Source of the DNA: Anolis carolinensis
Taxonomy: Eukaryota
Length of the DNA stretch: 64,000 nt
Direction: 5' to 3'
NCBI RefSeq assembly: GCF_035594765.1
Contig: NC_085844.1
Span: 89,729,923-89,793,922, forward strand
Below, in pieces: positions 21,008-63,401 of the stretch (its first letter is position 1; each line of letters opens with the position of its first letter). Under the pieces are notes generated by a model. The model saw only the letters and a program-made list of their open reading frames with translations. It made no database searches and was not told the DNA's origin. Made by a program: the position numbers and the translations under genes.

Positions 21008-21620
21008 CTGCTGCTCAGTCATTTAGTCGTCTCCGACTCTTCATGACATCATGGACCAGTCCATGCCAGAGCTCCCTGTCGGCCGTCACCGCCCCCAATT
21101 CCTTCAAGGTCAACCCAGTCACTTCAAGGATACCATCCATCCATCTCGCCCTTGGTCGGCCTCTCTTCCTTTTTCCTTCCATTTCCCCCAGCATCGTGAT
21201 CTTTTTCAAGCTTTTCTGTCTCCTCATGATGTGGCCAAAATACTTCAGCTTTGCCTCTAATATCCTTCCCTCCAGTGAGCAGCCGGGCATTATTTCCTGG
21301 AGGATGGACTGGTTGGATCTTCTTGCGGTCCAAGGCACTCTCAGGATTTTCCTCCAGCACCACAGTTCAAAAGCATCTCTCTTCCTTCGCTCAGCCTTCC
21401 TTATGGTCCAGCTCTCGCATCCATAGGTTACTATGGGAAATACCATTGCTTTGACTATGCGGACCTTCTTTGCCAGTGTGATGTCTCTGCTCTTCACTAT
21501 TTCGTCAAGGTTGGCCATTGCTCTCCTCCCAAGAAGTAAACATCTTCTGATTTCCTGACTGCAGTCTGCATCTGTAGTGATCTTCGAGCCTAGAAATATA
21601 AAGTCTGTCACTGCCTCCAC
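21008..21620 (-). mobile_element. RTE/BovB LINE 3' fragment
   Basis: ORF 21015-21653: FIFLGSKI, VTYGCESWT, LKYFGHIMRR, GRPRARWMD. Confidence 0.93.
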
Positions 21621-22244
21621 CCTTTTAAAATTCACCCTTTTAAAAATCTCCATCTGCTAGAAGAAATTAAAAATCAAAGGTCTAGTTAAATATAAAGTTA
21701 TCTGTCTCCTGTTGGACATTCTCAGCTGAAATCCTACATGGGGAGATGGACAATAAAGATTTTCTCCAGTGGAACTCTGCTCTCCCTTCCCTTTCCCACA
21801 AGAGTCATCTTCTGTCTGATCTCCCTGGCATGGCCATTAGGGAGGCAATGTTAGGGAGATCAGGGGAGATTCAGGGTGACCAGGAGAGATTCAGGGTGGC
21901 TGGGTAGAAGCTGGTAAAAATCTGTTTATGTTCTTATACTGCATGCATGCCAACAAAGACTGTTACTACACCAGCCAAAAAACTCAGAACTATCTTGCTC
22001 CAGAGCTATCACATATGCAGCATGCAGAGTCCACAGTCCTTTAGGAGTCCTACTAAGTTGACAGAGCATAGGCACTGATGTCCTGTCCTCCTAAGGGCCC
22101 TATCACAACTGTAAGCAGCTCCCCTGCAGATGCCATGCTGGTAACATTGCATCTGTTGAAGTCACAACAGGGTGCCCAGACCTGTGATCATCAGAAGCAA
22201 TGGCCCCAGTAAGGGTCTGCTGGTTTGCTTCCTGGAGCAGCTTC

Positions 22245-25347: not shown

Positions 25348-28300
25348 CAACAACAACAACAACTGCCCCAAGACAGTGGAATGACATCAATATTACAAAA
25401 CTAAACGAGTCATCAGAATTCAAGAGAGAACCGAAGACCCATTTCTTCTGACATGTTTACCCAGCCAATTTTAAACCATGATTTTGAAATTTACATTCTA
25501 TCATTATTGTATTTTAATATTTGTATGATGTGTTGTCCAAGGCTTTCATGGCTGGGATCACATTTTAATATGTGCATTTAATAGAGATATATGCATTTTG
25601 TATGCATTTTTGGTGATGTGTTTCAAGTTGTGAAGAGAGGTGGATAACAAGTCATTGTTGTTGAACATCCATACGTAATAACAATTGTACAATTTCTTGT
25701 TCATATTTCTTGGTCCTATTTGAATGTTAAATGTGTGTAATTCAATCTTCACTTCTATATCTTACTCTGAATTGATGTGCTTCAATTTACAGGCAGTCCC
25801 CAAGTTATGAACAAGATAGGTTCTATAGGTTTGTTCTTAAGTTGAATTTGTATGTAAGTCTGAACAGGTACATTTTTTAAATGTAACTCCAGCCAAATAT
25901 ATATGCATATTAGCTGTGGTTAGTATAGGGAAGAGTTGACAGCCCTGTGGTTTTTGTTTTGCTGTCTGTGCCCCTATTCAGAAGATTTCACCTTACTTTC
26001 TGTCCCTGTGGAAATTGGAGTTGGTGATAAAGCTTCAGGGGAGACACCTTTTCCCTATGATAGCTCTTCCAGGAGTTAATTTCCCTTCTGAGCAGTAGAT
26101 TTCTCTTGCTTCCTGTTGTCTCGCCCCAGTTCTTAACTAGAAGCCGTTTGTAAGTTAGATGTTTGTAACTTAGGGACTGCCTGTACTTATGTATTCTCTA
26201 GAGGTGGATTCATGATTAGTGTTGTAGTAGAGCCTGTGGGTAATGTTACAAACAGTAGTATGGGTGCCAGAAGGGGGGAAAGGGTTACTCGGGAGCAGGA
26301 ATCTGATGATGAGCAGCAGAGAAAGAGGATCCGGGACATACTTACAGCACCTACAGATGAGGAGTCATTTGAAGGATTCTCTAGGGATGATAATGTTGCA
26401 GACAGTAGTTGTGGTGCCAGAAGGGGGAAAAGGGTTACCCGGGAGCAGGAATCTGATGATGAGCAGCAGAGAAAGAGGATCCAGGACATAGTTACAGCAC
26501 CTACAGATGAGGAGTTGTTTGAGGGATTCTCTGGGGACGATGGGTCAATGAGTGAAGGAGAAGAAGGAGACACCATGGATTGGACTAAGATAAGAAAAGT
26601 GCAAGGTATTTGTGAGGCGCCATCAACTAGTGATACCTTTATGGGGTTCTCTGGGGGTGAAGACTGGCAATCAGGGGGTCCAACTGATTCTTGGGGGGAT
26701 CTTGACAGGAGATGGAGGAATTGGAGGGAAAGTCAAGGGAATTCATGTGAAGAGCTGGGAGCAGCTGCGAGGGATAGTGATGGGGCAGTGGTCAATTCAT
26801 CTTTGGATGATGGTTTGTAGATAAAAGTGGGTTCAGGGGTGAGGAGTCTTTGCAGAAGGCAAGTTGCTGATGTGCGTTCGTGTGCTGTGTATTGGTAAAG
26901 ATTCTTGTAGACTTGCTGTTGCCTGTTTCGTGTTCGGCATTGGATTTGGATCTGCAGTTTGGACCTGGACCGGTTTGGCTAAAAACGCTGCTTCTGTGGA
27001 CACTGGAGCGACGCTGTTTTGGATTTCTCCTGCTTCAACGCTGGACTTCGGCTGATGACGCTTCTCTTCCCGCGACTCTTTTTGTTAACCATTTGTGTAC
27101 TGTGCCTTTTTGTTTTGCCTCAGAGTGCTTTGTTTGACTTGTTGCTCTTTGCATCCAGTTAATCTGGATTACATTTCTGTTAACCTTTTGGACCAGGTCT
27201 CGTTTGGTTTTTTGAGTTTTGACCAGTGGAACTGCATTTTAGTGTCTCTGCATTCCTTTCTTTTGTTTTAATAAACTCTGTTTTGAAGTCACTTTTAAGT
27301 TTGGCCCTTTAAGGCATCTGTGACTCCAACAATTAGTCAGTATTACTAAACTGAGAATGGTGGGTGTACTATTCATTTCCAACCCCAAGAGAGCATCTTA
27401 GTAATATATATATAACATCCCAATTTTTCTTCTTTAGAAACAATCGTCTGTGTCCTCTTTGACATACCTAATGGGTTTTTTATGGAATCAAGTGGGAGTT
27501 TTAATATTAGTAATACAACAACCTATGGCTGCCAGACTGGCTTCACAACTTTGCAAGGACTACACAGAGGAGAGACAACGTGTCTTCTAGATGGATGGGT
27601 ACCCAAACCAGAATGTATCAGTAAGTGCCTTCAATTAAATGAGTTTTTTTCCCTCAGACCCCATGTAGACTGCCATATAATACAGTTTCAGAATCCAGTT
27701 TAACTGCATTAATTAATTAATTAACTGTTGTTTTTGTGACGTATGCTAGGGAGAGCATTTAATTTCATTGTACAATGACAGTACATTTATTCTATTAAAC
27801 TGGATTATATGGCAGTGTACACTTATATGATCCATTTAAAAGGGTTAAACTGCATTCTCAAATTACATTTTATGTTAGTCTACAAGGGGCCCTGGTAAGT
27901 GAAAGTAAATTAGCATCCTTAAGGACTGTCATCCACAGCATATTGAAATCTGATATTGGATAGCAGTGAAAATCTTACTGATTTAGCAGAGAAACAATTA
28001 TGTGAAATTTTGAAAGTCATTACATGTGAAAACTATTTTCCAAATATTAGCTATGGAACAAATTCTGGCATTTTCTCAGACCCAATAATGAAGACAAGCC
28101 CTAGAAATCATCAAAGAGGTGTATGCCATAAACGTTTTAACTGGTGCTTCACTGTGATGTGCATTAATGACACTAAAACAACATGTTGTAGACATTATTT
28201 ATAAATTCCTCGCATAGTGCACTTGTGCACCATGTGATAAATTCAAATATGTTTCTGAATATTTCACCATGGGTTTAGTTATGGTAAAAGACTTATGTGA

Positions 28301-31300
28301 AGTTCAGTTGACCCTATTGAAGCTGCTCCCCAATTGGATAAAGACTTTTTTTATAGCCCAATTCATTTCTGCCAGTCAGATGCCAATTCTGCTCCTGAAA
28401 TGTGCTGCCTGGCTCATGTCACTCAGTAGGAAACCAGAGAGGCCTTGCATAAGGCTAGGAAAATCCACTTCCCCTGTGTGTCCTCTGTTAACTCTACTAA
28501 CTTGTACTTTTCAGAATATGCCAAAAGCTTTCACAGGCCAAACTCCAAGCACAGAGAATAATTTAAGATATAGTTAAGATACAGCTAGCCAAAGGATGGC
28601 CTTCAAAAACGATGAGCGATTGGCTTCTACAGGAGTAAAGCTCTGGAACTCTGGAAATGTTGTGTTTACTAGACTGTGCTTTGTAGAAACCAACCAACAT
28701 ATTATTTATGTGGGAAAACTTCAGTGGTTAATCATCCTGGCCTAGATCTTGTTCCAGAAATTTATTGCAACCCTTTGCATGGCAGAGGGTTGGGACGAAT
28801 GACTTTTGTGTTCTCTTCCAATTCTATGACTATATTATTTCATGATTCTACGAATCTAATTATTTGCTGGTGAAACCAGTTTCTCCCAAACCAATTCTGA
28901 ATCAACCTAGCAGTCAGGGTTGAGCAGCCCTTAGGGTCTCTGCTAATTATTTAACTATAAGTAAGGTTACATTTAAAAAGAGATAATATAGGATTCTGGC
29001 AGCTGTACAATTTTCAAACTTATTGTAATATTTTTGTATATTTGTATATTTTAAATTCTGTGCTAGTGCTTTTATGTCAAGCCACTTTGAGTCCCCTTTG
29101 AGGAGGTAAAGCAGAGAATAATAATAATAATAATAATAAGAAGAAGAAGAAGAAGAAGAAGTTGCATTAATAAGACCTGTATTTTTGTTTTCTTAGAGAC
29201 GTGCCCAAAGCCAGTGGACGAGAACATTATCTTCAGCACAACTAAACCAGTTGCATTACTGGAGGAAAAACTGATCTTTGAATGTACAGATGGACATGAA
29301 ACCATTAACCAGAAAAGAGGTGGTCAAGCAGTATGCACATTGAAAGGATGGAGCCCAAAGCCTCAGTGCCTATGTAAATTAACACAATATTGTTGTTGTG
29401 TAATAAAATTGAAAGTTTTGATTAATTGTTATAAACAAGTGGTTGCCAAAAGGTGTAGCATTTTCAGATGATGCCTTCATTTTTAGTTAATTTATTGGTA
29501 GCATACTTATTTTCTATATAAATGTTCTTATTTAAATTTCTTTCCTATTCATATTTATATACATAGGCAGGCAGCAATGTGAGGAAGTAGACTTAAGGTG
29601 CAATTACACTGTAGAGTTAATGCTGTTTGATGACATTTTTGCTGTCATGGCCCAGGGTTATGGAATCATGGCAACTGTAGTTTGATGCATCACCGACACT
29701 CTTGGGCAAAGAAGACGAAAGAAGTTATAAAAATACAACTTCTGTTATTCCATAGAATTAATGCAAGGCAGTTAAAGAAGAGTCAAACTGCATCAATTCT
29801 ACAGTGAAATGCACACATCTTATTAACGTATGTAGTTTCTTTTTATTTTACACTAGCTAAACCTGGCCATGCTCTCCTGTGGCTCAGTATGATATGTACT
29901 GAATCTGAATAAAAGTATTGTAGCGAACATAGATTCACCAAGAAAACACATCAATCAATTCAATTCCCTGCCTTTCATTGCTATGTCTATGTGGAATGTA
30001 TAGAAACGAAGGAAAAAGAGTTTCCTCCCCCAAAAAATCATTTTTATTGTAATGCTAGTGAATTGTCTACATTATTGGTGTGTCTTTATTCTGCATATAC
30101 ATTAAGATCAGATGATTTACCAACTCTGGAGCATACAACGTATAATTGCCCATGAGAGATGCATTTATTTTCCAATTTCAAACCACACACTTGCAAAGAT
30201 TGCCCCTGTGTTATATTGATAGTCATCACGAATGCAAGGCATATTGGTAATTGAAGTCATTTGAATTCGAATGTCATCTCATTAAGAATAAGTGGTATTC
30301 CCAAGGCAATCACACCCAACTCCTCCGTGTATGTAGAGTTAGCCATGTTGGGTCTGTGTGCCAAGTTTGGTCCAAATTCGTTGTCGGCTGGGTTTAGTGC
30401 ACTCTAGATATGGGTGAACTACAACTGCCGTAATCAAGGTCAATTCCAACATACTACAGCAGTATGTTCAGCGGGTCATGGGGGTTCTCTATGCCAAGTT
30501 TGGTCCCAATCCATTGTCAATGGGGGCACAATTTCTCTGGATGCAGGTGAACTGTAACTCCTGTAAATCAAAGTCAAGATCCCCCAGATTTTTCCAGTGT
30601 TTTCTGTTAGTTATGGGGAGTCTGTGTGCCTAAGTTTGTCCAGGTCCATCATTTGTGTGGGTCTCTGTGGTCTGTTGAAGTTGGAGCTAATCAGGGGAAG
30701 GTACTGCAAATCCCATCATTCTTGGTCCATCCTCCTATCAGCACCAGGATGTGAAGTGGGTAATGGGGTGTCTGTTTGCCAAATATAGTCCATGTCCATC
30801 ATTCGTGGGGGTTGCTGTGATGTGTGGGAGCCGATTTGGGTGAAGGTACTTCAGATTCCATCATTCATGCTCTGTCCTCCTCTATCTGCACCAGGACTGT
30901 AAAGTGGGTCATGGGGATCTGTGTGCCTGGTTTGGTCCTGTTCTGTCATTGGTGCAAGTCACAGTGGTCTGTGGGAGCTGAAGTTATTGAATATACTGCA
31001 TATCCCATCATCTGTGGTTCTCCCTCTGCCAAACTCATTTTACTATAAAAAACACACATATTGGATGCAACGTTTTGTCAAAATTTCAAGTCAATCAACT
31101 GACTACTTTTCAAGTTCTGCGTGCACAAATATATGCAGGTTGTATTTTTATATATAAAGATATGCATTCACCTATAGAGAGGGGATCATATGCTACACTG
31201 TTTTCAAATCAGATTTATTTTCATTTGCAAACATTGCAGGTGGATGTTAAGCTCCTTTTTCTAAAATACAGTTTACAAATTTAAAATGTCTTGCTGTATC

Positions 31301-41742: not shown

Positions 41743-44700
41743 TACCTCCCTCTCCCTCCTTGTGACCTCATGGCGGGGACAGGACTGCTCTTCCACCACC
41801 ACCCCCAACTCCCCATCGGCCTCCCTCTCTCAAACCCATTCTCAAACCAGTGATCTACTCAGCTGGTGGAGGATGAGGCCCTGAAGAGCATTTATATTTT
41901 ACTAATTCCACTGGGTTGTTCAGTCACATGAATTTACTATGAATTTTTGTATCTAATCAAGTGGCATCTTTTTTCACCAGAGGCTTGTACAATAACAGAA
42001 GAAGACATGAGTTATAACAATATAAGCCTGAAGTTGGCAGTGGGTCCAAAACTGTATATAGAATCTGGAGAAACAGCAGAGTTTATCTGCAAAAAGGGCT
42101 ATCAGGCAAATCCAACCTCCTCTCCATTCAAAGCACTCTGTATTGCAGGCAAGATGGAGTATCCCATATGCATAGAGGTATGTATATAACAGTCAATCAT
42201 AATAGTTTACAATTCAAGATAGTTTCCTTGATTCATTAATGGAGCTATATAAGCGGTCAAAACCCAAATGTCAGTATAAATTATGTCTGCAAAAATCAGC
42301 AAGCAGAAAATACATTGCATTGTTGAAGGCTTTAATGGCTGGAATCACTGTTCTGATTTACAAACAAATTCACCTTAAGAACAAACACCCCAGAGGGTAC
42401 ATTTCTCTCCAATCTCTATATAGAAATCAATATATATATTAGAGGTATGCAAATAAATTGGATGTCATCGTAAGTCATAGTAAATTCACTAAAACTGTGC
42501 ATATGAATTGATATTCGAAATATGCAGGAAAGGTGGAAGGGGAATTCAGAAACTGAAACACTCACCAATCATTTTTGTTAATGTTCTGTAACATTCGGAT
42601 ATCTCCCAAGGAAAGTTACTTTTCAGTATAAGCATAAAGCAATGTGTTGTCGAAGGCTTTCATGGCCGGGATCACAGGGTTGTTGTATGTCTTTCGGGCT
42701 GTGTGGCCATGTTCCAGAAGCATTCTCTCCTGACGTTTCGCCCACATCTATGGCAGGCATCCTCAGAGGTTGTGAGGTATGGAGAAAACTAAGCAAAGAG
42801 GTTAATATATATCTGTGGAAAGTCTAGGGTGAGAGAGGTCAGTGTGAATGTTGTGTAGTTAATCACTTTAATTAGCATTGAAAAGCTTATCTGCTGTCTT
42901 CTTCCTGCCTCTGGGGCATCCTTTGTTTAGAGTCGTTAACTGCCCTTGATTGATTCATGTCTGGAAATCCTCTGTTTTCAGAGTATTGCTTTTTATTTAC
43001 TGTTCTGATTTTTGAGTTTTTTAATACTGGTAGCCAGATTTTGTTCATTTTCATGGTTTCTTCCTTTCTGTTGAAGTTGTCCACATGCTTGTGGATTTCA
43101 ATGGCTTCTCTGTGTAGTCTGACATGATAGTTGTTAGAATGGTCCAGCATTTTTGTGTTCTCAAATAGTATTCTGTGTCCAGGCTGGTTCATCAAATGCT
43201 CTGCTATGGCTGATTTCTCTGGTTGAATTAGTGTGCAGTGCCTTTTCTGTTCTTTGACTCTTGTTTGGGCGCTGCGTTTGGTGGTCCCTATGTAGACTTG
43301 TCCACAGCTGCACGGTATCCGGTAGACTCCTGCAGAAGAGAGAGGATCCCTCTTGTCCTTCGCTGACCGTAGCATTTGTTGGATTTTCTTCGTGGGTCTG
43401 TAGATAGTTTGTAGGTTGTGCTTCTTCATCAGCTTCCCTATGCGGTCAGTAGTTCCCTTGATGTATGGTAAGTACACCTTTCCTCTGGGTGGATCTTTGT
43501 CTTGACTCTCATGGCTTGTTCTTGGCCTTGCAGCTCTTCTGATGTCTGTGGTGGAGTATCCATTGGCCTGTAGAGCCCAGTTTAGGTGGTTGAGTTCACC
43601 TTGGAGGAAGTGAGGTTCGCAGATTCTTTGTGCACGGTCTGTCAGGGCTTTGATTGTGCTCCTTTTTTGACTTGGGTGATGGTTGGAGTTTTTATGAAGG
43701 TATCTATCTGTGTGTGTAGGTTTTCTGTAAACTGTGTGGCCCAATTGTTGATTGGGTTTGCGGATGACCAGAACATCTAGAAATGGCAGTTTTCCTTCCT
43801 TTTCTTTTTCCATGGTGAATTGGATGTTTGGGTGGATGCTGTTAAGATGGTCCAGGAACTTGCTGAGTTCTTCCTCTCCATGGCTCCAAATTGTGAAGGT
43901 GTCATCTACGTATCTGAACCAAACAGTTGGCTTTTTTGGTGCTGTTTCTAGGGCCTGTTTTTCAAAGTATTCCATATAGAAATTTGCTACTACTGGGCTG
44001 AGAGGGCTCCCCATGGCCACTCCATCCTTCTGTTCATAGAATCCAGTGTCCCACTGAAAGTAGCTAGTGGTGAGGCAATGGTGAAACAGGGCTGTGATGT
44101 CTTCTGGGAAGTTTTGTTTGATTAGTGTGAGGGTGTCAGCTACTGGGACTTTGGTAAAAAGGGACACCACATCAAAGCTGATCAGGATGTCCTTGGTGCT
44201 TAGATTGAGGTTGCTGATCTTTTCTATAAAGTGTGTAGAGTCCTTGATATAATGTGCAGTGAGCCCAATGTGGGTTTGTAGCTGTGTAGCCAGAAATTTT
44301 GCAAGGTTGTAAGTCGGCGATCCAATGGCACTTACAATGGGTCTGAGTGGGATGGAGTCCTTGTGGATTTTGGGGAGTCCGTAAAGCCTGGGTGGGAGGG
44401 CTTCTGATTTGCACAGCTGTTGGCGTATGTCAAAGTTAATGGAGGAGTTCTTGATTAGAGTGTTCGTTTTTCTGGTGATTTTGTTAGTGGGGTCTTGTTT
44501 CAGTTTCTTGTAAATTGTGGGATCTAGAAGTTGTCTGATTTTTTCTTTGTATTGTTTTGTTTCCATGATTACTGTGGCATTCCCCTTGTCAGCTGGAAGA
44601 ATGATGATTTCAGGATAAAGCAACTTTGCCAAGAGAACATAAAGTGTTTAAAATCCAATCATTTTTTTTTGTATTAGGGCTGTGCAAAAATTATAAAAAG

Positions 44701-50915: not shown

Positions 50916-53900
50916 CTGAAAAATACAAAGTGAATGGGTAAGATTACAAGCCCAGATTTTGAATAACTATTATTTATGTTTAATGCAATTCACAAATTGC
51001 TTAAAATAATGCTTGTATACACAAATAATAGTATAGTACTATAAGTTGCTTTCAAGATCTAGGCATGCTAAGCCAACTGTTACTGCTCTCTTTTCACTGA
51101 CAAGAAACAGACTATTTTCAAAAAAGGCTTCAACTTGTATATGATTGGGGTCAAATCATAGAGTTGGAAGGGAACATAAGGGCCATCCAGTCCAATCTTT
51201 TGCCACCCAGGGAGGCACAATCAAAGCACTGTGAATAGATGTCCATACAGCCTCTGCTTAACGACCTCCAGAGAGTGAGACCCCATTACTCCAAGGAAGC
51301 ATATTCTACTGTCAAGTAGCTTTAATCACCAGAAACTTGTTCTAATGTTTATGTGCAAATTCTTTTTCTGCAATGTAGTGTAATAGGTTTGCTGTTTCTT
51401 AATATTTAATATGTTTGAATGAGTTTAAAACTGTTCAAAGTTAATGTTTTTAAGTGAATCCTTGTATTACACATTGTTCTACTAGTTTGTTTTGATATAC
51501 CCTTTAAGTCAGTCTGGGTTTCACATGAATAAAAAAAACCAGAATATAAGGAAAGTCAGTCAACCAATTATATAAAGTGGCCTAAAAGAAATAAAAAACC
51601 TGTCATTGTGGACAGTGTTCATCTTATGTGAAAATAAAGAGTCCAGATGTTGATACTTTCCAGTATTATTCACATTTTAGCATCAATGCCTTTTTTTAAA
51701 AGAAAAGAAAAAAAATACAAATATCCTTTCTTCATTTGTTCAAACCAATCAATTAAATAGTTTATTGTACTAGTCCAAGGCCATGACAAAAAGGTACAGG
51801 TGCAGGGTGCACAGAGTAGTACCCTCAAAGCAAACAGAAAGCAAAAGATAGCAAACATAGGTGAGCTTCATGCTTGCACAAAGAGCAAAAATAATGTGAA
51901 TTATTGTTACTGGGGGAGAGTTACATCTCTGTAACAGTTGATGGCAATTTTATCTAGCTCTATCTTCCTGATCTTTTTTGCAGAGAAAGCAAAGAGGGCC
52001 ACTTTATATACTACATAATCATTTGAGTTGCTTAGTAAAAACCGAACCATTTCTACAACATAGTTGTCATTGCCATTTATCTGCAGAGGTTTCAAATATC
52101 ATTCTCTCGGGTCACTAGACAAAGGGCAGTTTAGCATGTAGTACACAGTGCCTTTCACCCGACTGGCTACAAATGCAAAGTCTGTTTTCCAATGGCACAT
52201 TATGATAATGCCAATCAAATACTGTGGAGGGCATTTACTTGGAATTGCAGTTAAGTGAAGGCAATTCTTAAGGAGGATGGCTTATGTTTAGTCAGATATC
52301 TGGCTCTAAAATATTCAGATTTCAACAAGGGGAACCATGGGGAGAATTTGGTGTTCTTGTTTGACTGCAGAACCCTTCTTGAATCAGTCCAAAATAGCCA
52401 GTCTCTTAATTGCCTCTTATTCGTATCCAAGGCAGAATTAACTATGAGAGGTTGTTGCTGTGTAGAAGATTTTCTAAACTTATTTTGCAGTGTCGATGGT
52501 TGCTTATTTCCAAGTAACAATGCTGGAAGACGGTTACTTGGTAGAGTGGCATTTCATTTAAAGTATCTTAATTGGGCACTATCTACTTTTGTCTTGAATG
52601 AGGTACACAGAAGGGCTGTGGGAGTTCTAGTTGGGAGATAATAGAGTTTTTGGAGGAATAATAAAAAAAGTTATTATCTAAGCCCCAAATTTTTGTACTG
52701 TATAACATCTGTACCAACACTTTGCTACTGAAGATTTTTAGAGCAAGTCTAATTAATGGACCGCCCTGAGTGTGGAAAAATTTCATCAAAGCTGCTATTG
52801 TTTTCTCAGCTTTCAACCTCACTGCTTCCTTGTGACATTTCCAGGAAAGAGATTCACTAAAAACAATTCCCAGATTGTTATACCTGGTGCAGTGTTTGCC
52901 AAAAACCATAACCTTGGTCTTTGAGTAATTTATTAACAGATTTTCCTCTTAGCAGTAGGTACTGAAAGCCTTTAGAAGATTTTTAAGACCCAATTGAGAG
53001 ACAGATGAGCACTGTATCATTTGCATACACCAGGATGAAAATCTTTCTGTTCCTGAATACTGGTGACGGAGAGTCAGTTTTAGCCAAAGAAGGCACTAAA
53101 TCATTCATATAGATGTTGAAAAGAGTAGGGCCAGTAAGCATCCCTGTTTTACTCCCCGTGTTGTTGGAAAAGCTTCTGTCCGAGAACCATTTCTGCCAAC
53201 TCTGACACTCATTTCTGTGTTGGTGTATAGTGCGTGTATCAATCTTAATAGTCTGCAATCAATAACAGAATTCCATAGCTTTCACCATCATCTCATTCTG
53301 TTAATGGAATCAATGGCAGCAGAAAGATCAATGAAAGCAACAAAAACATGTTTGTCCCCCCCCTTGGTATATTTCTTTATGATATGATTTAGTGTGAAAG
53401 ATTGATCTATGGTGCTATATTCACTTTTGAACTCTGCTTGCTCTATTGTTTTTCTTGTAGCCAGTCTGTCAGTTTAAGAAGTAGATGTTGAGCATATAGC
53501 TTTGAAGTGATGTTGAGAAAGCTAACTGGATGATAGTTTTGAGGGTCATTTCTCCATATCCTGTCCTACTAGTACGGGCTATGCATCAGGACACCAGCAC
53601 ACCCATTTCTTTTAAAACAAATCCATAATTGCATTGATGTGAGCTTTTCAGACTACATGGCCATGTTCCAATAGGAGAGAATGCTACTGGAATATGGCCA
53701 CACAGCCTGGAAAACTCACTGCAACCCAGTGATTCTGGCCATGAAAGCCTTTGACAATACAAATCCATAGTTCTTCATAAGCTATATAATCAAAGCTTTT
53801 GCTTTCCCTAGAATAAACAAAAATGAATTCTTCTGCCATGGCTATTCCACTGTTATAGTTAAATTGCAATATACTTACACGTATGCATCGTGGATATTCA

Positions 53901-56900
53901 AATGTGTCATTGACACATCGTACTCTGAATTCAGGTGAAGATGGATGTGGACGGTAGCCCCATTTACAGGCAAATTCTGCTACATCTCCAGCTGTGAAAT
54001 ATAATTTGTCCTTCCCAGTCCACCTCAGCCTTATATTATTGCGTTCCATGTCTTCTTGACTTGCTGTACATGGAACTGCAGAAAGACATAAGGTATGGAC
54101 TCCTCTGTGAATATGTCATGTTCTTCAGTTGTGTCCTGAATTCTTGTGCTGTACCTTGCTGAAGCTTGAACTGTGGTGATAATCTTATGACTACTACACT
54201 TTTTAACTCTTAAACCTTAGATAATTACTCTGTGAACACTTGGTGTTTGACTCAGACTGCAAACGCAGCTACTGTTTCTGCTTGCTCCTGAACCAGCATT
54301 TGCAGTACTCCCAATGATAATGAATCTTTGTGTGTGACTTCAGCTGTCTTTATGGTTGAACTTGGACCTGGAAATGGCCAAGTGTTTAAGTTATTGTTTT
54401 AAGTCAAATAGTTCTGACACAAGCCTAGTGTTCTTTGGTTAACCTTTATCTAGATGCAGACAGAATGAATAATAGGAACACATGCCCAAGAGACATCAAT
54501 CATTTCCACCCCAGCTGTATCCCAAGTTGGTATACTCAACTACAGATCAAGTCAAGGTCAAAGATCAAAGCAAAATGGCAGCTGTTTTATAGGTCACTGT
54601 TTTGGATCTGACCAGCAGCACTTTCATGCCAAGGGGATTGTTTAAAAGGCTGTCTAGGTTGAGCAATGAAGAGAGAGAGGAATTGCATAAATACCGGTAC
54701 TCATTTTGCATCTTAGTTCTATGATAGTATAATTTTATTCATATTCAGTCATCTTCTTCTGTGAACAACAAGCAAGTGTATTCTGGACAAGGGAATATAC
54801 TGTGCACCCAAACCTGCAATTCTAACTGGCAGATATGCAGTTGTCAACCTAATAGAGTAATAGATCACAGATAAACCATAAAAATAATTTTATTTTTAGA
54901 CAAATCAGTAAAAGAAAGAGTATGATAGAGATAAAAAGAACACTAGAACTTGATCAACCTCACATAAAGCTGTAGTAATGTCATGCACTTTGGTGATTAC
55001 GTACCTATTTCTGTGATGCATAAATAATGAATAAAACCTGCTTTTTCACATGTATTGCTCATTCATTTATAGTATCTTGTAACTGAATTTGGTCTTCCTC
55101 ACCTTCCTCTTTTTCCCATTGAGAGATAGGATACAGTATCCATTAAGATTACAATGGGAGTTCAGGAAAAGAAATGGTTTCTATTTGTATAATATACATT
55201 GAATTGTTCAGAACTCTTAATATATACCCGCTGACCTAATTTCTTCAACACAAAACTTCATTGCTAAGTGGCCAATGATGCAAACTAAGGTGAGGAACTG
55301 TTAAACTTAACTTCAGACCTTAAGCATATTTTACATTGGACTAATTTTCAATATAAGCTCCATTCTCGTCTTTGCAGAGTGTTCTGAATTAAAAAAAAAC
55401 AAAGAAGCGGAATATGCTAGGCCTCCAAATCCATTTTAGTATTATTGCTCTCATCATGTAGATGAGAGCCTTTACTGAAAGGAGAGCTTTGCCTATATTC
55501 CCAATGGTATTAAACAAAATCAGGTTTCCCAATGGAAGTAAGAGTGTAATTTGTAGGACAAAATCTCCTGTTCAGCCCCACTGTTCTCCCAATGAGGATG
55601 GAAATGGAGATAGAAGGAGAGAATCCCTTTGGGTAGAGATTCAACATGCATCATAAGAAAATGTATAGGGCTACAATTATTATAAAGTTCAGTGACACTG
55701 GAAGTACAAAACATGGATCCTATAAATCCAAGAAATATTTAACTTTCTGTCTATGCTGTCTAACTTTCTGCACTATGAAGTACCAACCAGTGGTGTAGAT
55801 TCTCCCCATGCCTTCAACCAAGATTACAGAAGTAATCAAAACACTTTGTGACAAATAAGGAAGGCATATGAAGGCAGCTTTATCCATGTATGTCTTACAC
55901 TAAGAAGGCAACTTCACTTCCAGTATGTGACCTGCAACAACCTTTCCAACTCCATCATTCTGAAGGCATTGTTTTGAGTACGTGTAACATGAAATAGTTA
56001 TAAGTGTATGCTTCTATTATGTAGAATTCATACATTTTTTTCAATGACTAAATAAATCTATTAAAGCCATGACATATACAGTAGAGTCTCACTTATCCAA
56101 CACTCACTTATCCAACGTTCTGGATTATCCAATGCATTTTTGTAGTCAATGTTTTCAATATATCATGATATTTTGGTGCTAAATTTGTAAATACGTTAAT
56201 TACTACATAGCATTACTGCTTATTGAACTACTTTTTCTGTCAAATTTGTTGTATAACATGATGTTTTGGTGCTTAATTTGTAAAATCATAACCTAATTTG
56301 ATGTTCAATAGGCTTTTCCTTAATGCCTCCTTATTATCCAACATATTCGCTTATCCAACGTTCTGCCAGCCCATTTATGTTGGATAAGTGAGACTCTACT
56401 GTAAATGAATTTTACTTTTTTCTGTATTTACAAGATCTATACCATTAACTGTTATGAAGTCTTGAAATTATTCTCATACCTATGCACTTTGGGGTGTCCG
56501 ACCAATGGCCATTTTGACAACTTACTGCTGCATTTCCTTCCATGTTGTAGAAACGTTGGCATTTGTATATCACACGTTCACCTGATTTATATTCATCTTT
56601 TAAAAGATCAATAATATCTCCATTTTCAATAGAAGGTGGGCGGCCACATTTTTCTACATTAGCTTTAGAAAAGAATTGAACACTGAATCAGAAAACAGCA
56701 TTTTTCCTCATAACATTCAATATGATTGCAAATAGTATGAGAACACATATCCTTCCCCACTGTTACAGATATGAAAAAGGAAAATAAGGGGAAATACTAT
56801 TCATTTTTAAGAATGGAAATCAAACCATCCATGTTTGTTAGTGAAGTATGGACAATCAATTAACAACAACAATTACTAATGATGATTCTCATTTTTATTC

Positions 56901-59900
56901 TTTTTCAGGTATGAATGACATCTATTTGTCCTTTGCTTAAGAGTTTGAACAGACCGCACAGTTGCTTTTGTGTCAATAGGATTTCAACAAATCTGCATTT
57001 TGCTTCTCTGTTTACTCCCAGTGTTTATCTTGTTCCTATCCACTTTTGAAGAGTACTTTTAGTACCTATTATATATTAGTTTTACGTAGTAGCTTCTGCA
57101 TAAACCTAGAATAGTGCATGCAAGACTTTGACTTTTTTTGGCCACCATTTTACTTTGCTCAGAACACTTGCCCACTATAATTAAGCACTTCCATTTCATC
57201 TATAACCACCATTTTCATTAAGCCTATAAGGCTCACTGATGGGATTCCACCTGATCTAGTTTTCATTTCTGTGTATTTATAGGTATCTAAGACTGGAAAT
57301 GAATGGGCAGACAATCTGTATTCAATTTATAAATTTGATTTCTGATGCATATATTTTCAATAGGGGAGGAGGGCAAAACGGGTAAGATGTAGGGAATGTA
57401 TACTTCCATAATTTCTAACTGGACCTTTAATATATTTGAACCTTTTGAATGCACACACAGCTGCACTGAGGGTCCATGCATGAGTGTTATAACAAGCCAG
57501 GAATTTTATGTTATCAGTAGTCTCCAATTCTGTGCACAACAGGAAAGTCAAGCAAACTGTTTCAGAACGTGTTATGATGTCAAGCATCAGTAATGAAGTA
57601 GGCTTGACATCTTGGATTTTTCTAGATCCATTAATCAAAGGTTTCCAACTTAAATATTTGAATAATTCTGCCAAAATATAACATGTCACAAATATCTGCT
57701 TAGGCTATCCAAATTTAACCTTAAATACAAAATTTTCAATCCACACATATTCAATTCACACACATTCATTAACTGAAAATGGTCTAATGAACAGATAACC
57801 ATGAACAACATAGATATCATCCCATAAAGCACAAGTAACATGTACTTTCTGTCATGGCATTGTGTGTAGTATGGGGAAAATATGATCATTCTTTTTTTCC
57901 AACACTCCTTATAATTCACTGCAGCAGTGGGAACAAGTTCGTTTGGTTCATATAACTAAATTCAAACCAATTCAACTAATATTTTCTTAATGAAGAAACA
58001 AAATAGAATCCAAACGTCATGCTTGTCAAATGTAGTGAAACGGTTTGCTGATTAAAATGAAATCTGTACTAAAATACATATTAGGCATGTCCGATCAATG
58101 AAAAAAATATTTCAATTCTTGTTTCTAAATTAGGGGGCGCTTCGAAATAGAAACTATTTCTGATTTTTTTCACCCAAAAATTTCGAATATTTCTGAAAAT
58201 TTGTAATGATTCTAAATGTTTCTAAAATGTCGGGTGCGCACGCGCAATCACCAAAAAAATGGCACCCAGGGGGGACATTTACAGGGCTCTCCCGCCCTCA
58301 TTTCTGGAGCTATCCTCATAAAATTTGATACAGTGGGAGAACACATTCAACACTCTTAGCTCAACAAATTGCAGAACGTTTCCTGTATCCTACGATTTTT
58401 GGCGAATTTTTATAACTTTTAATAATACACTATTTTTTAATATTTGAAGAAACCTGTTCCTGGTTTGAAAGTTTTATTTCCTGTTCAATTGGGTTTTTAT
58501 CACTATGAAATGGACCAGTGACCACACCAAGCAACTAGAAATTCCCTTGTTATATTTTTAAGCAAGAAGGGCACTGGAAATCAATGGTGTGTATTCCTAT
58601 GTGATCCCACATGCAACAAACGTGATGCCTTGCCTTCCTTTTTTTAATGTACCAGTGACCAACCTGGCCAATGCTCTGGCAAGGTGTGCAAAGAAACTTT
58701 GAAAACTAGAAATTCCCTTGTTATATTTTTAAGCAAGAAGGACACTGCAAATCAAAGGTGTCTCTGGCTATGTGATCCCACAAACCTCAAAGGCAATGCC
58801 TTGCCTTCCTTTGGAAATGTACTTGTGAGCAAGCTGGCCAATGCCCTGGCAAGGAGTGCACAGATACTTTGAAAATTATAAATTCCCTTGCTATATTTGT
58901 AAGCAAGAACTCTGGAAATCAATGGTGTCTCTGGCTATGTGATCCCACAAGCCTGAAAGGCAATGCCTTCTTAATGAAATAGACTGCTGATTCTGCAAAG
59001 GTAATAATATTAATAAATAAAACTTTATTTATACCCCGCCACCATCTCCCCGTGGGGACTCGGGGCAGCTTACATGGGGCAGAGGCCCAAACAACACAAG
59101 GACAAAATATAAGCAACATAATACAATCACAATATAAAACAGATAAAACAGTAATGCAATATATCAATTAAAACAACAATACAGAATAAAAAATTACATT
59201 AAAAACACATAAAACGTAAGACCATAATAAATACAGGATAGATTATTAAAAACCCTCTGGGGCTGATTAATTAATGACTATCTCCGAAAGCCTGCTGAAA
59301 CATCCAAGTCTTCAGTTGTTTCCTGAAGGAAGGTAGAGAGGGAGCCAACCTAATCTCCCTGGGGAGGGAGTTCCAGAGTCCGGGGCCACGGCCGAGAAGG
59401 CCCTCTCTCTCGTCCCCACCAAACGCAGTTGTGAGGAGGGCGGAAGCGAGAGGAGGGCCTCCCTGGAAGATCTCAGCGACCGGGTGGGTTCATAGGGGAC
59501 GACGCGGTCACAAAGATAGGCAGGTCCCGAAGCGTTTAGAGCTTTATAGGTAATAACCTGCACCTTAAATTGGGCCCGGAATATAATCGGCAGCCAGTGG
59601 AGCTGCCTAAACAGGGGGGTTGACCTCTCCCTATAAGCAGCTCCAGTTAGTAACCTGGCTGCCGACCGTTGTATCAACTGGAATTTCTGGACCGTCTTCA
59701 AGGGCAGCCCCACGTAGAGTGCGTTAGAGTAATCCATCCTTGAGGTAACCAGAGCGTGGACCACCATGGCCAAGTCAGACTTCTCGAGGTACGGTCGCAG
59801 TTGGCGCACTAGTTTTAGCTGTGCAAAGGCCCTCCCGGCCACCTCCCACACCTGAGCATCAAGTGACAGTGATGAGTCCAGGAGGACCCCCAAGCTGCGG

Positions 59901-62900
59901 ACCTGCACCTTCAGAGGGAGTGTGACCCCATCAAGCACAGGTAGCCACCCTATGCCCCGATCGGCCTTAACGACTGACCTGGAGGACCTCTGTCTTGTCA
60001 GGATTGAGCTTCAGCTTGTTGGCCCTCATCCAACCCATTACAGCGGCCAGGCACTGGTCTAGGGTCCGAGGGGCTTCCTTGGATACTATGATCCAGCAAG
60101 AACTATTCTTAACGAAATTGAAAGCTAGATAATTTTATTAATAATATGGAAAAAATATAACTCTGGAATTCACAGCTCTAAATAGCTGAGCACTACCCAA
60201 AATTAACACACTCACAAGAGAAGGAACCAGCAACAAAACCCTAACCCTTTCTCCAAACCCCTCTGTGAGAACAGCCAGATCGGGCCCCTTCACCCTCTCT
60301 CTCCCTCAAGACATGAGGTTTGCTTGCTTTCCATTTGCAGACCACCACCCTCTCCGCACAAAACCCAGCTCAGAATGGCTCGCCCAGGCTACACAATGGG
60401 CTTTTATGGCAATCTTCCATGTGGACGCAGAGGACCCTAGCCCCCATCTTTGTGTCCATCGTGGAAGCTTCTGATTGGCTGGGGAGCGGCAGCCATGTTA
60501 GGCTGCGCCAAGCTCCCATTCAAGGTAGGTTGCAGAAACAAAAATTTTAAAAATATATTTTAAAAAATATATTTTAAAAAATTTTGGTGGGAAAAAATTA
60601 ACGAAACATTAAGAGACAATTAGAGAATGGGCCAACGATGGTTCAAATTACATTGCTGGTTGCGCTGTGAGACAACGTCTCGGAATGCGTCTCAAAAAAG
60701 CAAGAACAATCCAATATAAATCCGATATACGATTCAAAACGATTTTTTGGACATACCTAATACATATCTAATGTAGTCAAAGAAATATAAACAGAAAGCA
60801 TGTTTCAGGAGAAATATATATGTACATGACATTTCAGCAAAGTTTTTAACCAAATAAATTTCAAACAGTAGTGATACAGAATGAATTTGTGCATCAACAC
60901 AATTTGAAAATTGCAGATATCAAATTACAGGATTCTTCATCTTTAGTTTGGCAAGAAAGAGCATTTACTCATAAAGTCAACAGTACTGGAAAAGGCCAAC
61001 AGTAATCTAACCAATAAATCTAACCCATATTGTGCTCTAAGGCTTGGATACCCAAATGGACTTGTATCAATCCATGTAATTCAGACAAACAGACCATAAA
61101 TATATTATCACAAAATACAAGGCACAATTTATACAAGCCTTTCAAACCCCTTCATGCTAGGAAAGAGGAGAGATGATTGGGGGGAAAGTTTCTCAAGTTG
61201 TAAGAAACTTGAATTAGAAGAATCCTAGATGGATGGGAATTTTAACAGAGAGTTATTCTCTACAAAAAAAATTACATGTGCAATTTTTCACATGCAACAT
61301 GCACAGAAAAAAATTGCAAAAAAGAACATTTTGTATGCAGGACACATTTTCTCTTTTGAAAATAATATTTCGACACAGAAATATCAATTCCTTTATAGAA
61401 AAATTGAATGTGAATTAAGTGTTTTCTGCATAAAAATATTATTTCAATGCAAAAATATTAATTCATGTTCAAAATGTGTTTTACTGCACAGAAATATGAA
61501 TGCTGACCTCAGCTATTGATTTTGGCAAGCAAGATTTGAGCATTCTTATATCCCTTGCAATCCTGGATAACAGACAAAATGGAAGGTACGTCACTCTATG
61601 CCACATAAGTTCAACTACATGTTGGATGACCTGACCTCAAGTTGGTAGGTCAAAGGCCATCTTTAACCATTGCTAAAAATCATGGGAGACATTTCTTATC
61701 ACTTTTGAGAAGCTATTCAAGAATCTACCTAGAAAAAAAGAAAACGTCCATTTCCATTTGTACCTCACTTTCAAGATATATCAGAATGGGATCAAATACC
61801 TCTGCACTGGGGTGCTTCTGACCATTGCTTCTTTAAACACGTTATTGTACGAGATCCAGAAATATAGTATCCATTGTCACACTGATACTCCATGGTTTCA
61901 TTAGGTGAATACTTTTGCTTTTTATTTCCTCGAAGCTGACCATGCAGAATGTCAGGTGGAGGAGGACATCCATCTACTTCAGATATGATTTGAAAAACAG
62001 AAGCATTATCTATAAATTGGTAATTACTGTTTTTCTGAAGCCTTATATTAGCAAACCTCTTACCTCCGTTAACACAATTGGATTGCATTTCCAGGCCTAT
62101 TAAACACATCTTTCGATTATCCCAATCTGAAAAGGACTTTCCCTGTTAGTCCTTTGCCATCCCACTTTTTTAGCTGCTTTAAAAATGTACATCCCCCCTC
62201 CTTTGTCCACTCATCTTCTGCTTACTTCAATTCCTGCAAACTTAGATTATAGTGCAAAAGTAGCTTGCACTCAATTAGTTCAGCAAGGATGGAATCTTGC
62301 ACTTCCCCTGAAGATTTAGCCAAAAGCATACTGAAACAACCTCTTCATTGGAAAGTTACAAATATGTAACCTATAGTTATGCACTCACAGTGGTTTCATA
62401 CTCATGATCCCTATGCATTCCCCAATTTTGGAGATAAGCTTCCTATTTGCCACATACAGGGCAGCTGCCACTGTTGGAAGGGAGTCTCTTCCTCTGTTGA
62501 TTGGAAATCAACTGACTGAGATTAACGCTTCCCCTCCATACATATGCAATTCATCAATATGCAATCTTTGGTGCAAGGGTGATATGCAAAAGAGAAAGAG
62601 AAAGTTGCTTTCTAGTAAGTAGGAACTGGGAGGATTAGGAAGGAAGTCATTACATAGCTGCATAGTTATGGTGCTTATATATTCATAATTTCCCAATAGA
62701 ATGACCATGAATAGTTACTGAAATAGTAATCAACAAAACTGTGAGTACTGAGCATCAGGAGCTAGTCTGAAACTCATAGAAATTGTTCAAGGACAGCAAC
62801 ACTCATGATATTGCCATATTACTGGTCAATGAGTCTTGTATTAGTAATGTATGGCACTAATACATCTCATCCATGGCAGCAATTTCATTATCCACCCCCT

Positions 62901-63401
62901 CCCAACACAGGGAAAAAGAATTGCCTGTGATGAGAGATGGCTCACTTAGAATTGGAATCCACATGGAAATTCAGTAGATGGATTCCTTTTGCGGTGGTTC
63001 GTTTTTGTCATCTGTCATTTTCTATTTGTCTTTCAAATGATAGCTTCAGAGGCTGTAATGGTGAAATGTGCATCTATCTTTACTTCAGAAATTGTTAAAC
63101 ATGCATTAGAAGTTTGGAGAACCTTGTGTCTCTTTCCTTCCAGCTCCTCCCATTTCCCTTTCTTTTTCTTCTCAATGCTTCCCACTGAACCTTTGTAATA
63201 GGATTTGGAAATATTTATCCATACCTTCACATGTTGGTGGTTCAGACCATGCCTTATTATCACATCTTACAATTTTTGGTCCAAATATTTCAAAACCTTC
63301 ATGACATTCATAACGCACCTCTTGGCCAGGAAGATAGACTTGGGATCTAGCTACAAGAATATCACCATTAGCAACTACAGGAGGTTCTCTGCAAGTTACA
63401 T
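50910..63401 (-). CDS. Gene C (5'-partial): complement factor H or FH-like protein, last four SCRs; complement(join(50910-50915,53879-54075,56480-56662,61800-61973,63225-63401))
   Basis: Four sushi exons plus terminal micro-exon. Last domain LRWTGKDKLY..EFACKWGYR is much closer to FH SCR20 (LRWTAKQKLY..EFVCKRGYR) than to F13B. Gene continues past the window. Confidence 0.82.
51155..51372 (-). mobile_element. Old CR1 3' fragment
   Basis: Reverse complement of a CR1 tail (AATCATAGAGTTGGAAGGG...GGCCATCCAGTCCAA). Confidence 0.7.
52060..53560 (-). mobile_element. Degraded non-LTR retrotransposon RT (possibly RTE-X-like)
   Basis: Frameshifted motifs: STIDQSFTL, VAFIDLSAAID, GPTLFNIYMNDL, ILVYANDTVLI, NLGIVF...W.CH. 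Confidence 0.75.
53638..53760. mobile_element. Mini Penelope terminal-repeat remnant with inverted halves
   Basis: TGGCCATGTTCCA / TGGAATATGGCCA; ends CATGAAAGCCTTTGACAATAC; ACAAATCCATA repeated near both flanks. Confidence 0.7.
53879..54075 (-). CDS. Gene C sushi exon, FH SCR20-like (PCTASQEDMERNNIRLRWTGKDKLY...FEYPRCIR)
   Basis: tttctgcag acceptor, CGT|gtaagt donor; 197 nt. Confidence 0.94.
56079..56401 (-). mobile_element. Tc1/mariner MITE, ~80 bp from a gene C splice donor
   Basis: Same TIR family with TA flanks. Confidence 0.9.
56480..56662 (-). CDS. Gene C sushi exon, FH SCR19-like (EKCGRPPSIENGD...YKCQRFY...CQNGHWSDTPKCI)
   Basis: Not in the ORF track; translated by hand; 183 nt; G|gtatga donor. 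Confidence 0.93.
58533..58970 (+). repeat. ~171-bp tandem repeat, about 2.5 copies
   Basis: AAATTCCCTTG(T/C)TATATTT..AAGCAAGAA recurs at ~58538, 58710 and 58881. Confidence 0.85.
59014..60082 (-). mobile_element. L2 LINE 3' fragment
   Basis: ORF 59312-59938: VRSLGVLLDSSL, HALVTSRMDYSN, LHWLPI. Confidence 0.92.
61800..61973 (-). CDS. Gene C sushi exon (DGCPPPPDILHG...YQCDNGY...TCLKKQWSEAPQCR)
   Basis: Sushi consensus; tandem AAG/TAG acceptor (start 61976 or 61973); G|gtattt donor. Confidence 0.92.
63225..63401 (-). CDS. Gene C sushi exon, FH SCR18-like (DVTCREPPVVANG...VRYECHEGFEIFG...WSEPPTCE)
   Basis: ccccatttag acceptor, G|gtatgg donor; 177 nt. Confidence 0.93.

What the first reader, a model, noticed from the sequence alone, without database searches (positions are those of the whole stretch)
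26212..26820. Solo LTR with a 202-codon acidic ORF carrying three FxGF motifs
Seen: the frame is open from the first LTR base (26220) and stops right at the TATA-like GATAAAA (26820), so it fills the putative U3. It encodes DEESFEGF, DEELFEGF and SDTFMGF. The 150-bp internal duplication (~26240-26539) is exactly 50 codons and preserves frame. Established: acidic-FxGF is the motif that MLL1, JPO2/CDCA7L and PogZ use to bind the LEDGF/p75 integrase-binding domain and related TFIIS N-terminal domains; U3-encoded ORFs exist (MMTV sag, the HIV nef overlap). Inference: the parent retrotransposon may encode a multivalent chromatin-tethering tail or accessory protein in its LTR. Caveat: purine-rich DNA can be stop-poor by chance.
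Basis: partly seen in the sequence, partly recalled or inferred. Interest (0 to 1): 0.72.

Follow-up and report, generated by a model that had tools for sequence, protein, structure and literature searches.

The report
Retrotransposon integrase tail mimicking LEDGF partners
This is a leftover end-repeat of a lizard jumping gene whose open frame is, in its close relatives, the conserved tail of the insertion enzyme; the tail carries repeated motifs matching those that host proteins use to bind the chromatin reader LEDGF, so it is predicted to bind LEDGF and would likely steer insertions into active genes, as HIV does by a different route.

Summary
Confirmed and extended. 26220-27331 is a solo LTR (ATTAG target duplication) of a high-copy Ty3/Gypsy family of Tf1/sushi type in an anole genome. 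The 199-codon U3 frame is not a stand-alone gene. In related elements it continues pol/integrase in frame across the polypurine tract (26 of 30 loci), and this clade has no chromodomain. The tail is under purifying selection between families (dN/dS 0.26-0.36, against 0.56-0.60 within families). Its unit (basic helix, 8-residue acidic linker, FxGF) has the spacing of JPO2's LEDGF-binding motif. A profile of the unit returns the LEDGF IBD-JPO2 structure as top PDB hit (E=0.003). A distant Gypsy lineage, teleost where named, carries 1-3 such units after the integrase GPY/F domain (23 of 24 hits, query-biased). Complex prediction with anole LEDGF gave weak support only (0.49; best control 0.01). 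Against: no internal region was found for the window's own subfamily; one abundant sister family lacks FxGF; binding and targeting are untested. No earlier report turned up in my paper searches, but three primary LEDGF-motif papers were not held. The scan's notes held no match.

The parts
26215..26219 (+). 5' copy of the 5-bp target-site duplication ATTAG
   Evidence: sequence
26220..27331 (+). Solo LTR of a Tf1/sushi-type Gypsy retrotransposon (subfamily 'A'), TGTTG...CAACA
   Evidence: TSD; 40 scored of 1031 candidates; 286 exact matches of a 24-base LTR-start pattern, 0 for the control
26221..26820 (+). U3 frame, 199 codons plus stop: C-terminal tail of pol/integrase in the parent clade; a non-coding relic in this solo copy (inferred)
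26241..26540 (+). Two tandem 150-bp (50-codon) units; 1-3 units in other copies
26269..26328 (+). Two basic clusters separated by an acidic spacer (RRGER...RKR), bipartite-NLS-like; repeated at 26419-26478
   Evidence: sequence; only a non-significant hit to an importin-binding peptide (3ukw, E=0.4); NLS role inferred
26320..26379 (+). TIM/IBM-like unit 1: RKRIRDIL helix, TAPTDEES acidic linker, FEGF
26470..26529 (+). TIM/IBM-like unit 2: RKRIQDIV, TAPTDEEL, FEGF
26590..26649 (+). Degenerate unit 3 in the same register (VQGIC, 8 residues, FMGF); linker Ser/Thr-rich rather than acidic; present in families A and B, absent in C, E and F
26581..26727 (+). Further conserved Trp motifs of unknown role (W121; W165-x-x-W168-R169)
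   Evidence: invariant or nearly invariant across families including F
26818..26826 (+). Stop codon overlapping the TATA-like TAGATAAAA
   Evidence: sequence; a similar box lies about 30 bp before the R start in families B, E and F
26852..26862 (+). Inferred start of R (5' end of the transcript), GCAGAAGGCAA, complementary to the self-priming PBS of subfamily B
27270..27275 (+). AATAAA poly(A) signal
   Evidence: sequence
27332..27336 (+). 3' copy of the TSD ATTAG
   Evidence: sequence
27437..27620 (+). Host sushi (CCP) exon about 105 bp downstream; the LTR lies in the same orientation, in what is likely an intron of a complement factor H-like gene (gene name inferred)
   Evidence: sushi-like exons; Pfam Sushi on two other exons; GT..AG joint 27620-29197 in run X1

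Best explanation
The U3 frame is, in close relatives of this solo LTR, the in-frame C-terminal tail of a chromodomain-less Gypsy integrase, and its repeated helix-acidic-FxGF units are predicted to mimic host TND-interacting motifs and likely bind LEDGF/p75 (or HRP2), which would tether integration to H3K36-methylated, transcribed chromatin. Shown: the solo LTR; the Tf1/sushi-type parent clade; the frame continuity with integrase; the absence of a chromodomain; protein-level selection on the tail and on F/G/F; motif geometry equal to JPO2's. Inferred: the tail is translated only from the 3' LTR of full-length genomic RNA; it stays attached to integrase; CK2-type phosphorylation of the linker tunes affinity; 150-bp duplications raise valency; the tail replaced the chromodomain as the targeting device. 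This window's copy is a neutrally decaying relic.
For: 26 of 30 loci found with an integrase C-terminal peptide have the PPT|LTR junction in frame with the GPY/F domain; 3 are shifted and 1 has no LTR. Elements with LTR pairs 99.5% and 99.6% identical carry the tail inside 1214- and 1219-aa pol frames. Pfam finds PR, RT, RH, IN and SH3 but no Chromo in 3 of 3 clade pols, and Chromo in 2 of 2 outgroup pols. dN/dS is 0.26 for A-B (CI 0.17-0.38), 0.33 for A-C, 0.36 for B-C and 0.30 for E1-E2, against 0.60 and 0.56 within A and B. A-B differences by codon position are 0.24/0.21/0.43, but flat within A. At the F, G, F columns, between-family comparisons are 36% synonymous and 6% non-synonymous, against 14% and 58% elsewhere; identity is 0.94 against 0.44, P about 0.003. 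A profile of 16 lizard units gives 6EMO (LEDGF IBD-JPO2 motif 1) as best of 7 PDB hits, E=0.0029, next 0.4. The definition (helix, acidic linker of 8-16 residues, FxGF; FxGF particular to LEDGF/HRP2 ligands) is met (PMC9987994). The host has LEDGF-family exons. A distant Gypsy lineage has the same unit after GPY/F. Predicted complex: score 0.49, best of 3 controls 0.01, partner pLDDT at least 59, runs agreeing in at least 89% of contacts, tool verdict weak support. That mark was reached by 51 of 78 solved and 2 of 108 mismatched pairs, but at 0.60 or under by only 5 of 78 solved pairs and by all 4 of 180 mismatches that passed. In eukaryotes it was reached by 39 of 65 solved and 2 of 126 unrelated pairs. 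A like complex (6EMO) is solved, so the pass may come from memory.
Against: No internal region, PBS or PPT junction was found for subfamily A itself. Continuity rests on B (about 72% nt, 57-58% aa) and on C-F. Family F lacks FxGF and keeps only the helix and acidic run, yet makes up 17 of the 30 loci, has LTR pairs 97-99% identical and nests inside the clade; the motif is therefore dispensable for transposition. No insertion-site test against genes was possible. The chromosome spread does not favour small chromosomes: 79 of 286 LTR starts lie on C1 (20% of bases), and none of the 150 listed matches lies beyond C6 (ranking bias possible). A single-sequence search with the distant-lineage tail did not find 6EMO, nor did the window ORF alone. 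That lineage was retrieved with a query containing the motif. Chromodomain-bearing relatives also run about 85-90 codons into their LTR without FxGF, so read-through into U3 predates the motif.
Confidence: 0.62

Rival explanations
1. The tail is a real TND ligand but does not choose the insertion site. It recruits LEDGF/HRP2 or another TND protein for intasome stability, nuclear retention or escape from silencing, possibly after protease release from integrase.
For: All sequence evidence for mimicry fits equally. Family F keeps only the helix and acidic part, which PMC9987994 says suffices for other TNDs. There is no positive evidence on insertion sites.
Against: The position at the integrase C-terminus, where relatives have a chromodomain, is where known targeting domains sit (PMC3059260 passages; PMC7459421 abstract).
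Confidence: 0.2
2. The tail is an acidic disordered extension kept for a bipartite nuclear localisation signal and for the Trp motifs; FxGF resembles LEDGF ligands by coincidence.
For: The basic residues (R67, R84, K85) and W121 are invariant even in family F, while FxGF is lost there. A weak hit to an importin-binding peptide (E=0.4).
Against: F, G and F are conserved with synonymous change. The helix-to-FxGF spacing equals JPO2's in both lineages. In several distant-lineage proteins FxGF is the very C-terminus.
Confidence: 0.11
3. A stand-alone U3 accessory gene (like MMTV sag), translated from ATG 26260 on a spliced or subgenomic RNA.
For: The Met is present in A and B. No A-type internal region was found.
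Against: The Met is absent in C, E and F. It lies about 590 bp upstream of the inferred transcription start. The frame is fused to pol in 26 of 30 loci.
Confidence: 0.05
4. A chance stop-poor frame, or conservation at DNA level as an enhancer.
For: U3 is purine-rich. Within subfamily A, changes are flat across codon positions.
Against: 0 of 5000 shuffles are open. Third-position excess and low dN/dS between families. The flat pattern within A is what decay after insertion predicts.
Confidence: 0.02

Closest known systems
[quoted passage not shown]
   Same: gag and pol (PR-RT-RH-IN-SH3 Tf2-like), 5-bp TSD, self-priming PBS, and RT sister to chromodomain-bearing elements of the same genome (PMC6317226 passages)
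   Different: No chromodomain; instead a 138-205-codon tail in U3 with 1-3 full helix-acidic-FxGF units
Plant CRM group A elements (CR motif)
   Same: [quoted passage not shown]
   Different: CR motif not compared here; it is linked to centromeres and its partner was unknown in that paper. Here the motif points to a named host partner
TND-interacting motifs / LEDGF IBD-binding motifs of JPO2 (CDCA7L), MLL1, IWS1
   Same: Helix, acidic S/T-containing linker and FxGF; the same 8-residue spacing as JPO2 motif 1; multiple copies as in JPO2 and IWS1
   Different: Encoded by a mobile element; binding not measured
Lentiviral integrase-LEDGF tethering
   Same: The same host domain and the same predicted outcome, insertion into transcribed genes (PMC9987994)
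   Different: HIV integrase uses a pre-folded dimer cleft and LEDGF D366, not a disordered motif (PMC6382798 passages)
Ty1 integrase targeting domain (and Ty5's)
   Same: A short C-terminal motif binds a host factor; in Ty1 it lies in the linker of a bipartite NLS and mutants keep their integration frequency (PMC7459421 abstract and section headings)
   Different: The partner is Pol III subunit AC40; Copia superfamily
PogZ
   Same: A transposase-derived protein known to bind the LEDGF IBD (recalled; the name co-occurs with IBD in the listing)
   Different: A domesticated DNA-transposon gene, not a retrotransposon integrase

Membership tests
Solo LTR | TG...CA termini with one TSD pair and no internal region | tested here: met
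Ty3/Gypsy | pol order PR-RT-RH-IN, with GPY/F (SH3) domain | tested here: met
   sister elements; not directly for subfamily A
Tf1/sushi group | Self-priming PBS complementary to the transcript's 5' end | tested here: met
   11-base complement about 30 bp after the TATA-like box, covarying across B, E and F; B's target sequence is in the window at 26852
Tf1/sushi group | RT groups with named reference elements (sushi-ichi, Tf1) | not tested
   No named references in the tree; it groups with chromodomain-bearing elements of the same genome, support 90/80
Chromovirus in the strict sense | Chromodomain at the integrase C-terminus | tested here: not met
   no Chromo in 3 of 3 clade pols; loss inferred from a midpoint-rooted tree
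TIM / LEDGF IBM | Short helix with aliphatic or aromatic anchors | tested here: inconclusive
   anchor pattern aligns with JPO2; helicity not modelled, no interface given
TIM / LEDGF IBM | Acidic linker of 8-16 residues with S/T | tested here: met
   8 residues in units 1-2 with T-D-E-E, a CK2-type pattern (recalled consensus); unit 3 weakly acidic
TIM / LEDGF IBM | FxGF | tested here: met
   absent in family F
TIM / LEDGF IBM | Measured binding to a TND | not testable with these tools
   only a weak predicted complex
U3-encoded accessory gene (sag/nef type) | Separate frame with its own conserved start | tested here: not met
   fused to pol; ATG not conserved
Endogenous retrovirus | Retroviral pol, env and tRNA PBS | tested here: not met
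   Gypsy-type gag/pol, self-priming PBS, pol runs directly into the LTR

The most novel reading that the evidence does not exclude
Vertebrate Gypsy retrotransposons have, at least twice independently (a lizard chromovirus clade that lost its chromodomain, and a distant lineage found in teleosts), evolved multivalent host-mimicking TIM/FxGF tails on integrase that hijack LEDGF/HRP2 to integrate into transcribed genes. This is a third solution to LEDGF tethering beside lentiviral integrase and host IBMs, and its valency is tuned by in-frame LTR duplications.
Probability: 0.45. Interest if true: 0.88.

Novelty: new variant of a known kind. Interest (0 to 1): 0.76.

Why it matters
LEDGF tethering of integration is described for lentiviruses, through a folded surface. 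A retrotransposon using the host-type disordered motif would show convergent capture of the same chromatin reader. It would name a host partner for vertebrate Gypsy integrases and explain how a chromovirus lineage coped with losing its chromodomain. The genome supplies a natural experiment: coexisting families with a chromodomain, with FxGF units, and with the helix alone. This makes target-site switching directly testable from existing insertions.

Tried and rejected
Pfam of the ORF: nothing significant. Single-sequence searches with the ORF: 0 hits among longer proteins and 0 in PDB. The integrase-core search returned one unrelated ERV-type family in the three loci I read. A first PBS pattern for a tRNA-type primer gave 13 matches, none convincing: most of the flanking bases were TSDs. 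A same-strand pair 11.9 kb apart on C4 was two separate insertions with no Gypsy frame between them. The PPT pattern gave one true junction (subfamily B, L122) among 12 distinct places. No subfamily-A PBS junction among 7 matches. The indel tally (U3 36 of 69 events in frame; R/U5 3 of 66) is not used as a test, because most in-frame events are the same two shared events counted repeatedly; 10 frame-breaking events fall in one G run near 26694-26699. The distant-lineage tail and the chromodomain-clade tail gave nothing significant in PDB. ESM Atlas was unavailable. Sequencing runs: no RNA holder listed on record; contigs of four runs showed a spliced host joint in X1 and no GT..AG joint involving the LTR among the joints listed, and cannot show LTR expression. 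The integrase tree was the quick version only. Tesina 2015, Sharma 2018 and Cermakova 2021 were not held; their text and supplementary motif lists could mention transposon-encoded motifs.

Full report
OBSERVATION. The element is a solo LTR at 26220-27331 (1112 bp, TGTTG...CAACA) between two ATTAG copies. FEGF, FEGF and FMGF are at 26368, 26518 and 26638. The 150-bp duplication is 91% identical. Of 5000 dinucleotide shuffles none was open in a forward frame; with one unit removed 3 of 5000 were. The LTR lies about 105 bp before a sushi exon that is spliced to the next one in one run's contigs. The host is an anole: a LEDGF pseudogene piece is 95% identical to Anolis proteins.

FAMILY. The genome holds hundreds of copies: 1031 candidates, 40 scored, and 286 exact matches of a 24-base LTR start. 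Of the 30 best DNA copies, 17 have a perfect 5-bp TSD and none showed a PBS or PPT flank. Copies carry one, two or three 150-bp units. Within this subfamily (A), differences are flat across codon positions, 0.058/0.063/0.066: the copies are decaying neutrally from parents with an open frame. A divergent subfamily B (about 72% nt, 57-58% aa) was found by protein search.

PARENT. One B-type LTR is preceded by a G-rich PPT and a Gypsy integrase GPY/F domain. Searching with that peptide gave 30 loci, which I sorted by eye into families B to F. In 26 of 30 the junction (..GATAG|TGT.., read D-S-V) is in frame with integrase; 3 are shifted and 1 lacks the LTR. Young members have LTR pairs 98.5-99.6% identical, and two carry the tail at the end of uninterrupted 1214- and 1219-aa pol frames. 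Pfam finds PR, RT, RH, IN and Tf2-like SH3 but no chromodomain in 3 of 3 such pols, and a chromodomain in 2 of 2 other Gypsy pols. The PBS is not a tRNA complement. Eleven bases pair with a site about 30 bp behind the TATA-like box, and the pair covaries among B, E and F. This is the self-priming of the Tf1/sushi group (PMC6317226, passages). B's target sequence is at window 26852-26862, which places the transcription start there and the whole ORF in U3. The frame can thus be read only from the 3' LTR of a full-length RNA, and the ATG at 26260 (absent in C, E and F) is upstream of the LTR's own start. In the RT tree (32 rows, midpoint root, no named references) the 12 clade rows group at 98/99, sister to chromodomain elements at 90/80. 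Loss of the chromodomain is inferred. No internal region of subfamily A itself was found in four searches.

SELECTION. Pairwise Nei-Gojobori on copies with open frames (13 A, 5 B, 2 C, 2 E1, 4 E2; chosen for being open): dN/dS A-B 0.26 (0.17-0.38), A-C 0.33, B-C 0.36, E1-E2 0.30, against 0.60 and 0.56 within A and B, which I take as the method's neutral baseline. Third positions differ about twice as often as the first two between A and B. At F100, G102 and F103, between-family comparisons are 57% identical, 36% synonymous and 6% non-synonymous, against 28/14/58% in 112 other columns; identity is 0.94 against 0.44 (P about 0.003 for three random columns). Basic residues and four tryptophans are as well conserved, so the tail holds more than this motif.

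THE MOTIF. PMC9987994 (first sixth of the text and passages) defines TIMs as a helix with aliphatic anchors, an 8-16-residue acidic linker and an optional FxGF. It states that all known LEDGF and HRP2 partners have FxGF, that several proteins carry multiple TIMs, and that lentiviral integrases hijack these domains; 'transpos' occurs 0 times in it. The lizard unit is [RK]-[RK]-[IL]-x-[DE]-[IL]-[LF], eight residues, FxGF. A profile of 16 units searched against 177,635 PDB sequences gave 7 hits at E<=10. The best was 6EMO, LEDGF IBD-JPO2 motif 1, E=0.0029, with the same spacing; the next was at 0.4. The anole IBD (P0003 401-490) with the window's unit 1 scored 0.49 against a best control of 0.01, with partner pLDDT at least 59 and runs agreeing in at least 89% of contacts: weak support. 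The mark was reached by 51 of 78 solved and 2 of 108 mismatched pairs, but at 0.60 or under by 5 of 78 solved pairs and all 4 of 180 passing mismatches. Peptides and disordered chains were not calibrated, and a like complex is solved.

SECOND LINEAGE. The same profile against 1.84 billion representatives gave 8 hits: four are this clade's tail (three named Anolis), two look unrelated, one (P0127) is unclear, and P0128 is a different Gypsy integrase end with two units after its SH3 domain. A search with that region returned 24 longer proteins; 23 have FxGF after the GPY motif, in one to three copies, and in each of the 23 FxGF occurs nowhere else in the protein. The query contained the motif, so 23 of 24 is not a frequency. 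All 8 rows with a species name are teleosts. They form a separate clade (100/100) far from all lizard elements. A profile of their units scores each of 8 lizard tails above all 200 shuffles, weakest for family F. Chromodomain elements without FxGF lie between the two groups, which favours independent gain, but the tree has no outgroup.

AGAINST. Family F lacks FxGF yet is abundant (17 of 30 loci) and fairly young, so the motif is not needed to transpose; Ty1 targeting mutants likewise keep their frequency (section heading in PMC7459421). Insertion sites could not be tested without annotation, and the spread over chromosomes leans to the largest ones. Read-through into U3 also occurs in chromodomain elements. 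Single-sequence PDB searches did not find the LEDGF complex. Nothing shows that the tail stays on integrase.

MECHANISM. Shown: the tail is encoded as the end of pol and is kept by selection. Inferred: after protease processing, integrase carries one to four helix-acidic-FxGF units that dock on the LEDGF or HRP2 TND, whose PWWP domain reads H3K36me2/3, so the intasome is held on transcribed genes. An overlapping basic-acidic-basic stretch may serve nuclear import. This solo copy makes no such protein.

COMPARISON AND NOVELTY. [quoted passage not shown] The partner has a precedent in lentiviruses, which bind it through a folded cleft (PMC6382798, passages). I found no report of a retrotransposon integrase with a host-type FxGF motif in ten full-text searches, seen as listings only. 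Six bore directly on this and four on background. The library lacks most subscription papers, and three primary papers were not held. The scan's notes had no sequence match; two word matches describe separate accessory genes in other genomes and did not bear on this.

VERDICT. Real feature; new variant of a known kind. Integrase tail about 0.93; true TND ligand about 0.75; LEDGF-type targeting as a whole 0.62. Interest 0.76.

Noticed in passing
L134, L138-L140, L144-L146, L203, L204 (G000): Chromodomain-bearing Gypsy elements also run pol about 85-90 codons into the 3' LTR. Their tail has DEEENLGF/DEDENMGF and ends in RRSARIAA, reminiscent of the HMGN nucleosome-binding core (recalled, untested). 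PDB gave nothing significant.
   Followed up: partly
P0128, P0130-P0154: A non-chromoviral Gypsy lineage, with one long gag-pol frame in the complete members, has 1-3 helix-acidic-FxGF units after GPY/F. All 8 rows with a species name are teleosts, and 7 of them carry the motif. Whether the tail lies in the LTR is unknown.
   Followed up: partly
P0127: A metagenome protein with two helix-acidic units (one ending W-K-G-F) upstream of a stretch that resembles Gmr1-type Gypsy pol (recalled; no Pfam hit). Possibly a third placement of the motif.
   Followed up: no
L083:5303-6439, L017, L036, L181, L194: LTRs of these Gypsy families are repeatedly found inserted in, or fused with, each other's LTRs (a family F LTR inside an A LTR; chromodomain-clade tails spliced into F and D LTRs).
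   Followed up: no
L192:3-4559: Another Gypsy lineage (1519-aa frame) ends shortly after the GPY/F domain with neither chromodomain nor tail, and groups with a chromodomain element in the RT tree: a second likely chromodomain loss.
   Followed up: no
L084-L113: A young, high-copy ERV-type family (1187-aa pol frame in most listed copies, env-like frame downstream) dominates the integrase-core search. Unrelated to this LTR.
   Followed up: no
L218 (G000:C2, 143.72 Mb): A processed pseudogene of PSIP1/LEDGF with a stop inside the IBD.
   Followed up: partly
window 8638-40033 (+) and 53684-63312 (-): At least 9 sushi-like exons on + and 3-4 on -: two converging complement factor H-like genes.
   Followed up: no
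window 42887-44647 (-), 21015-21656 (-), 59312-60010 (-): A 586-aa RT frame (Pfam RVT_1; Penelope-like by recall) and fragments of LINE-type elements.
   Followed up: no
P0121, P0122, P0124: Gene predictions for Anolis already include these LTR tails as 'uncharacterized' proteins or fused to LINE RT; probably annotation artefacts.
   Followed up: no
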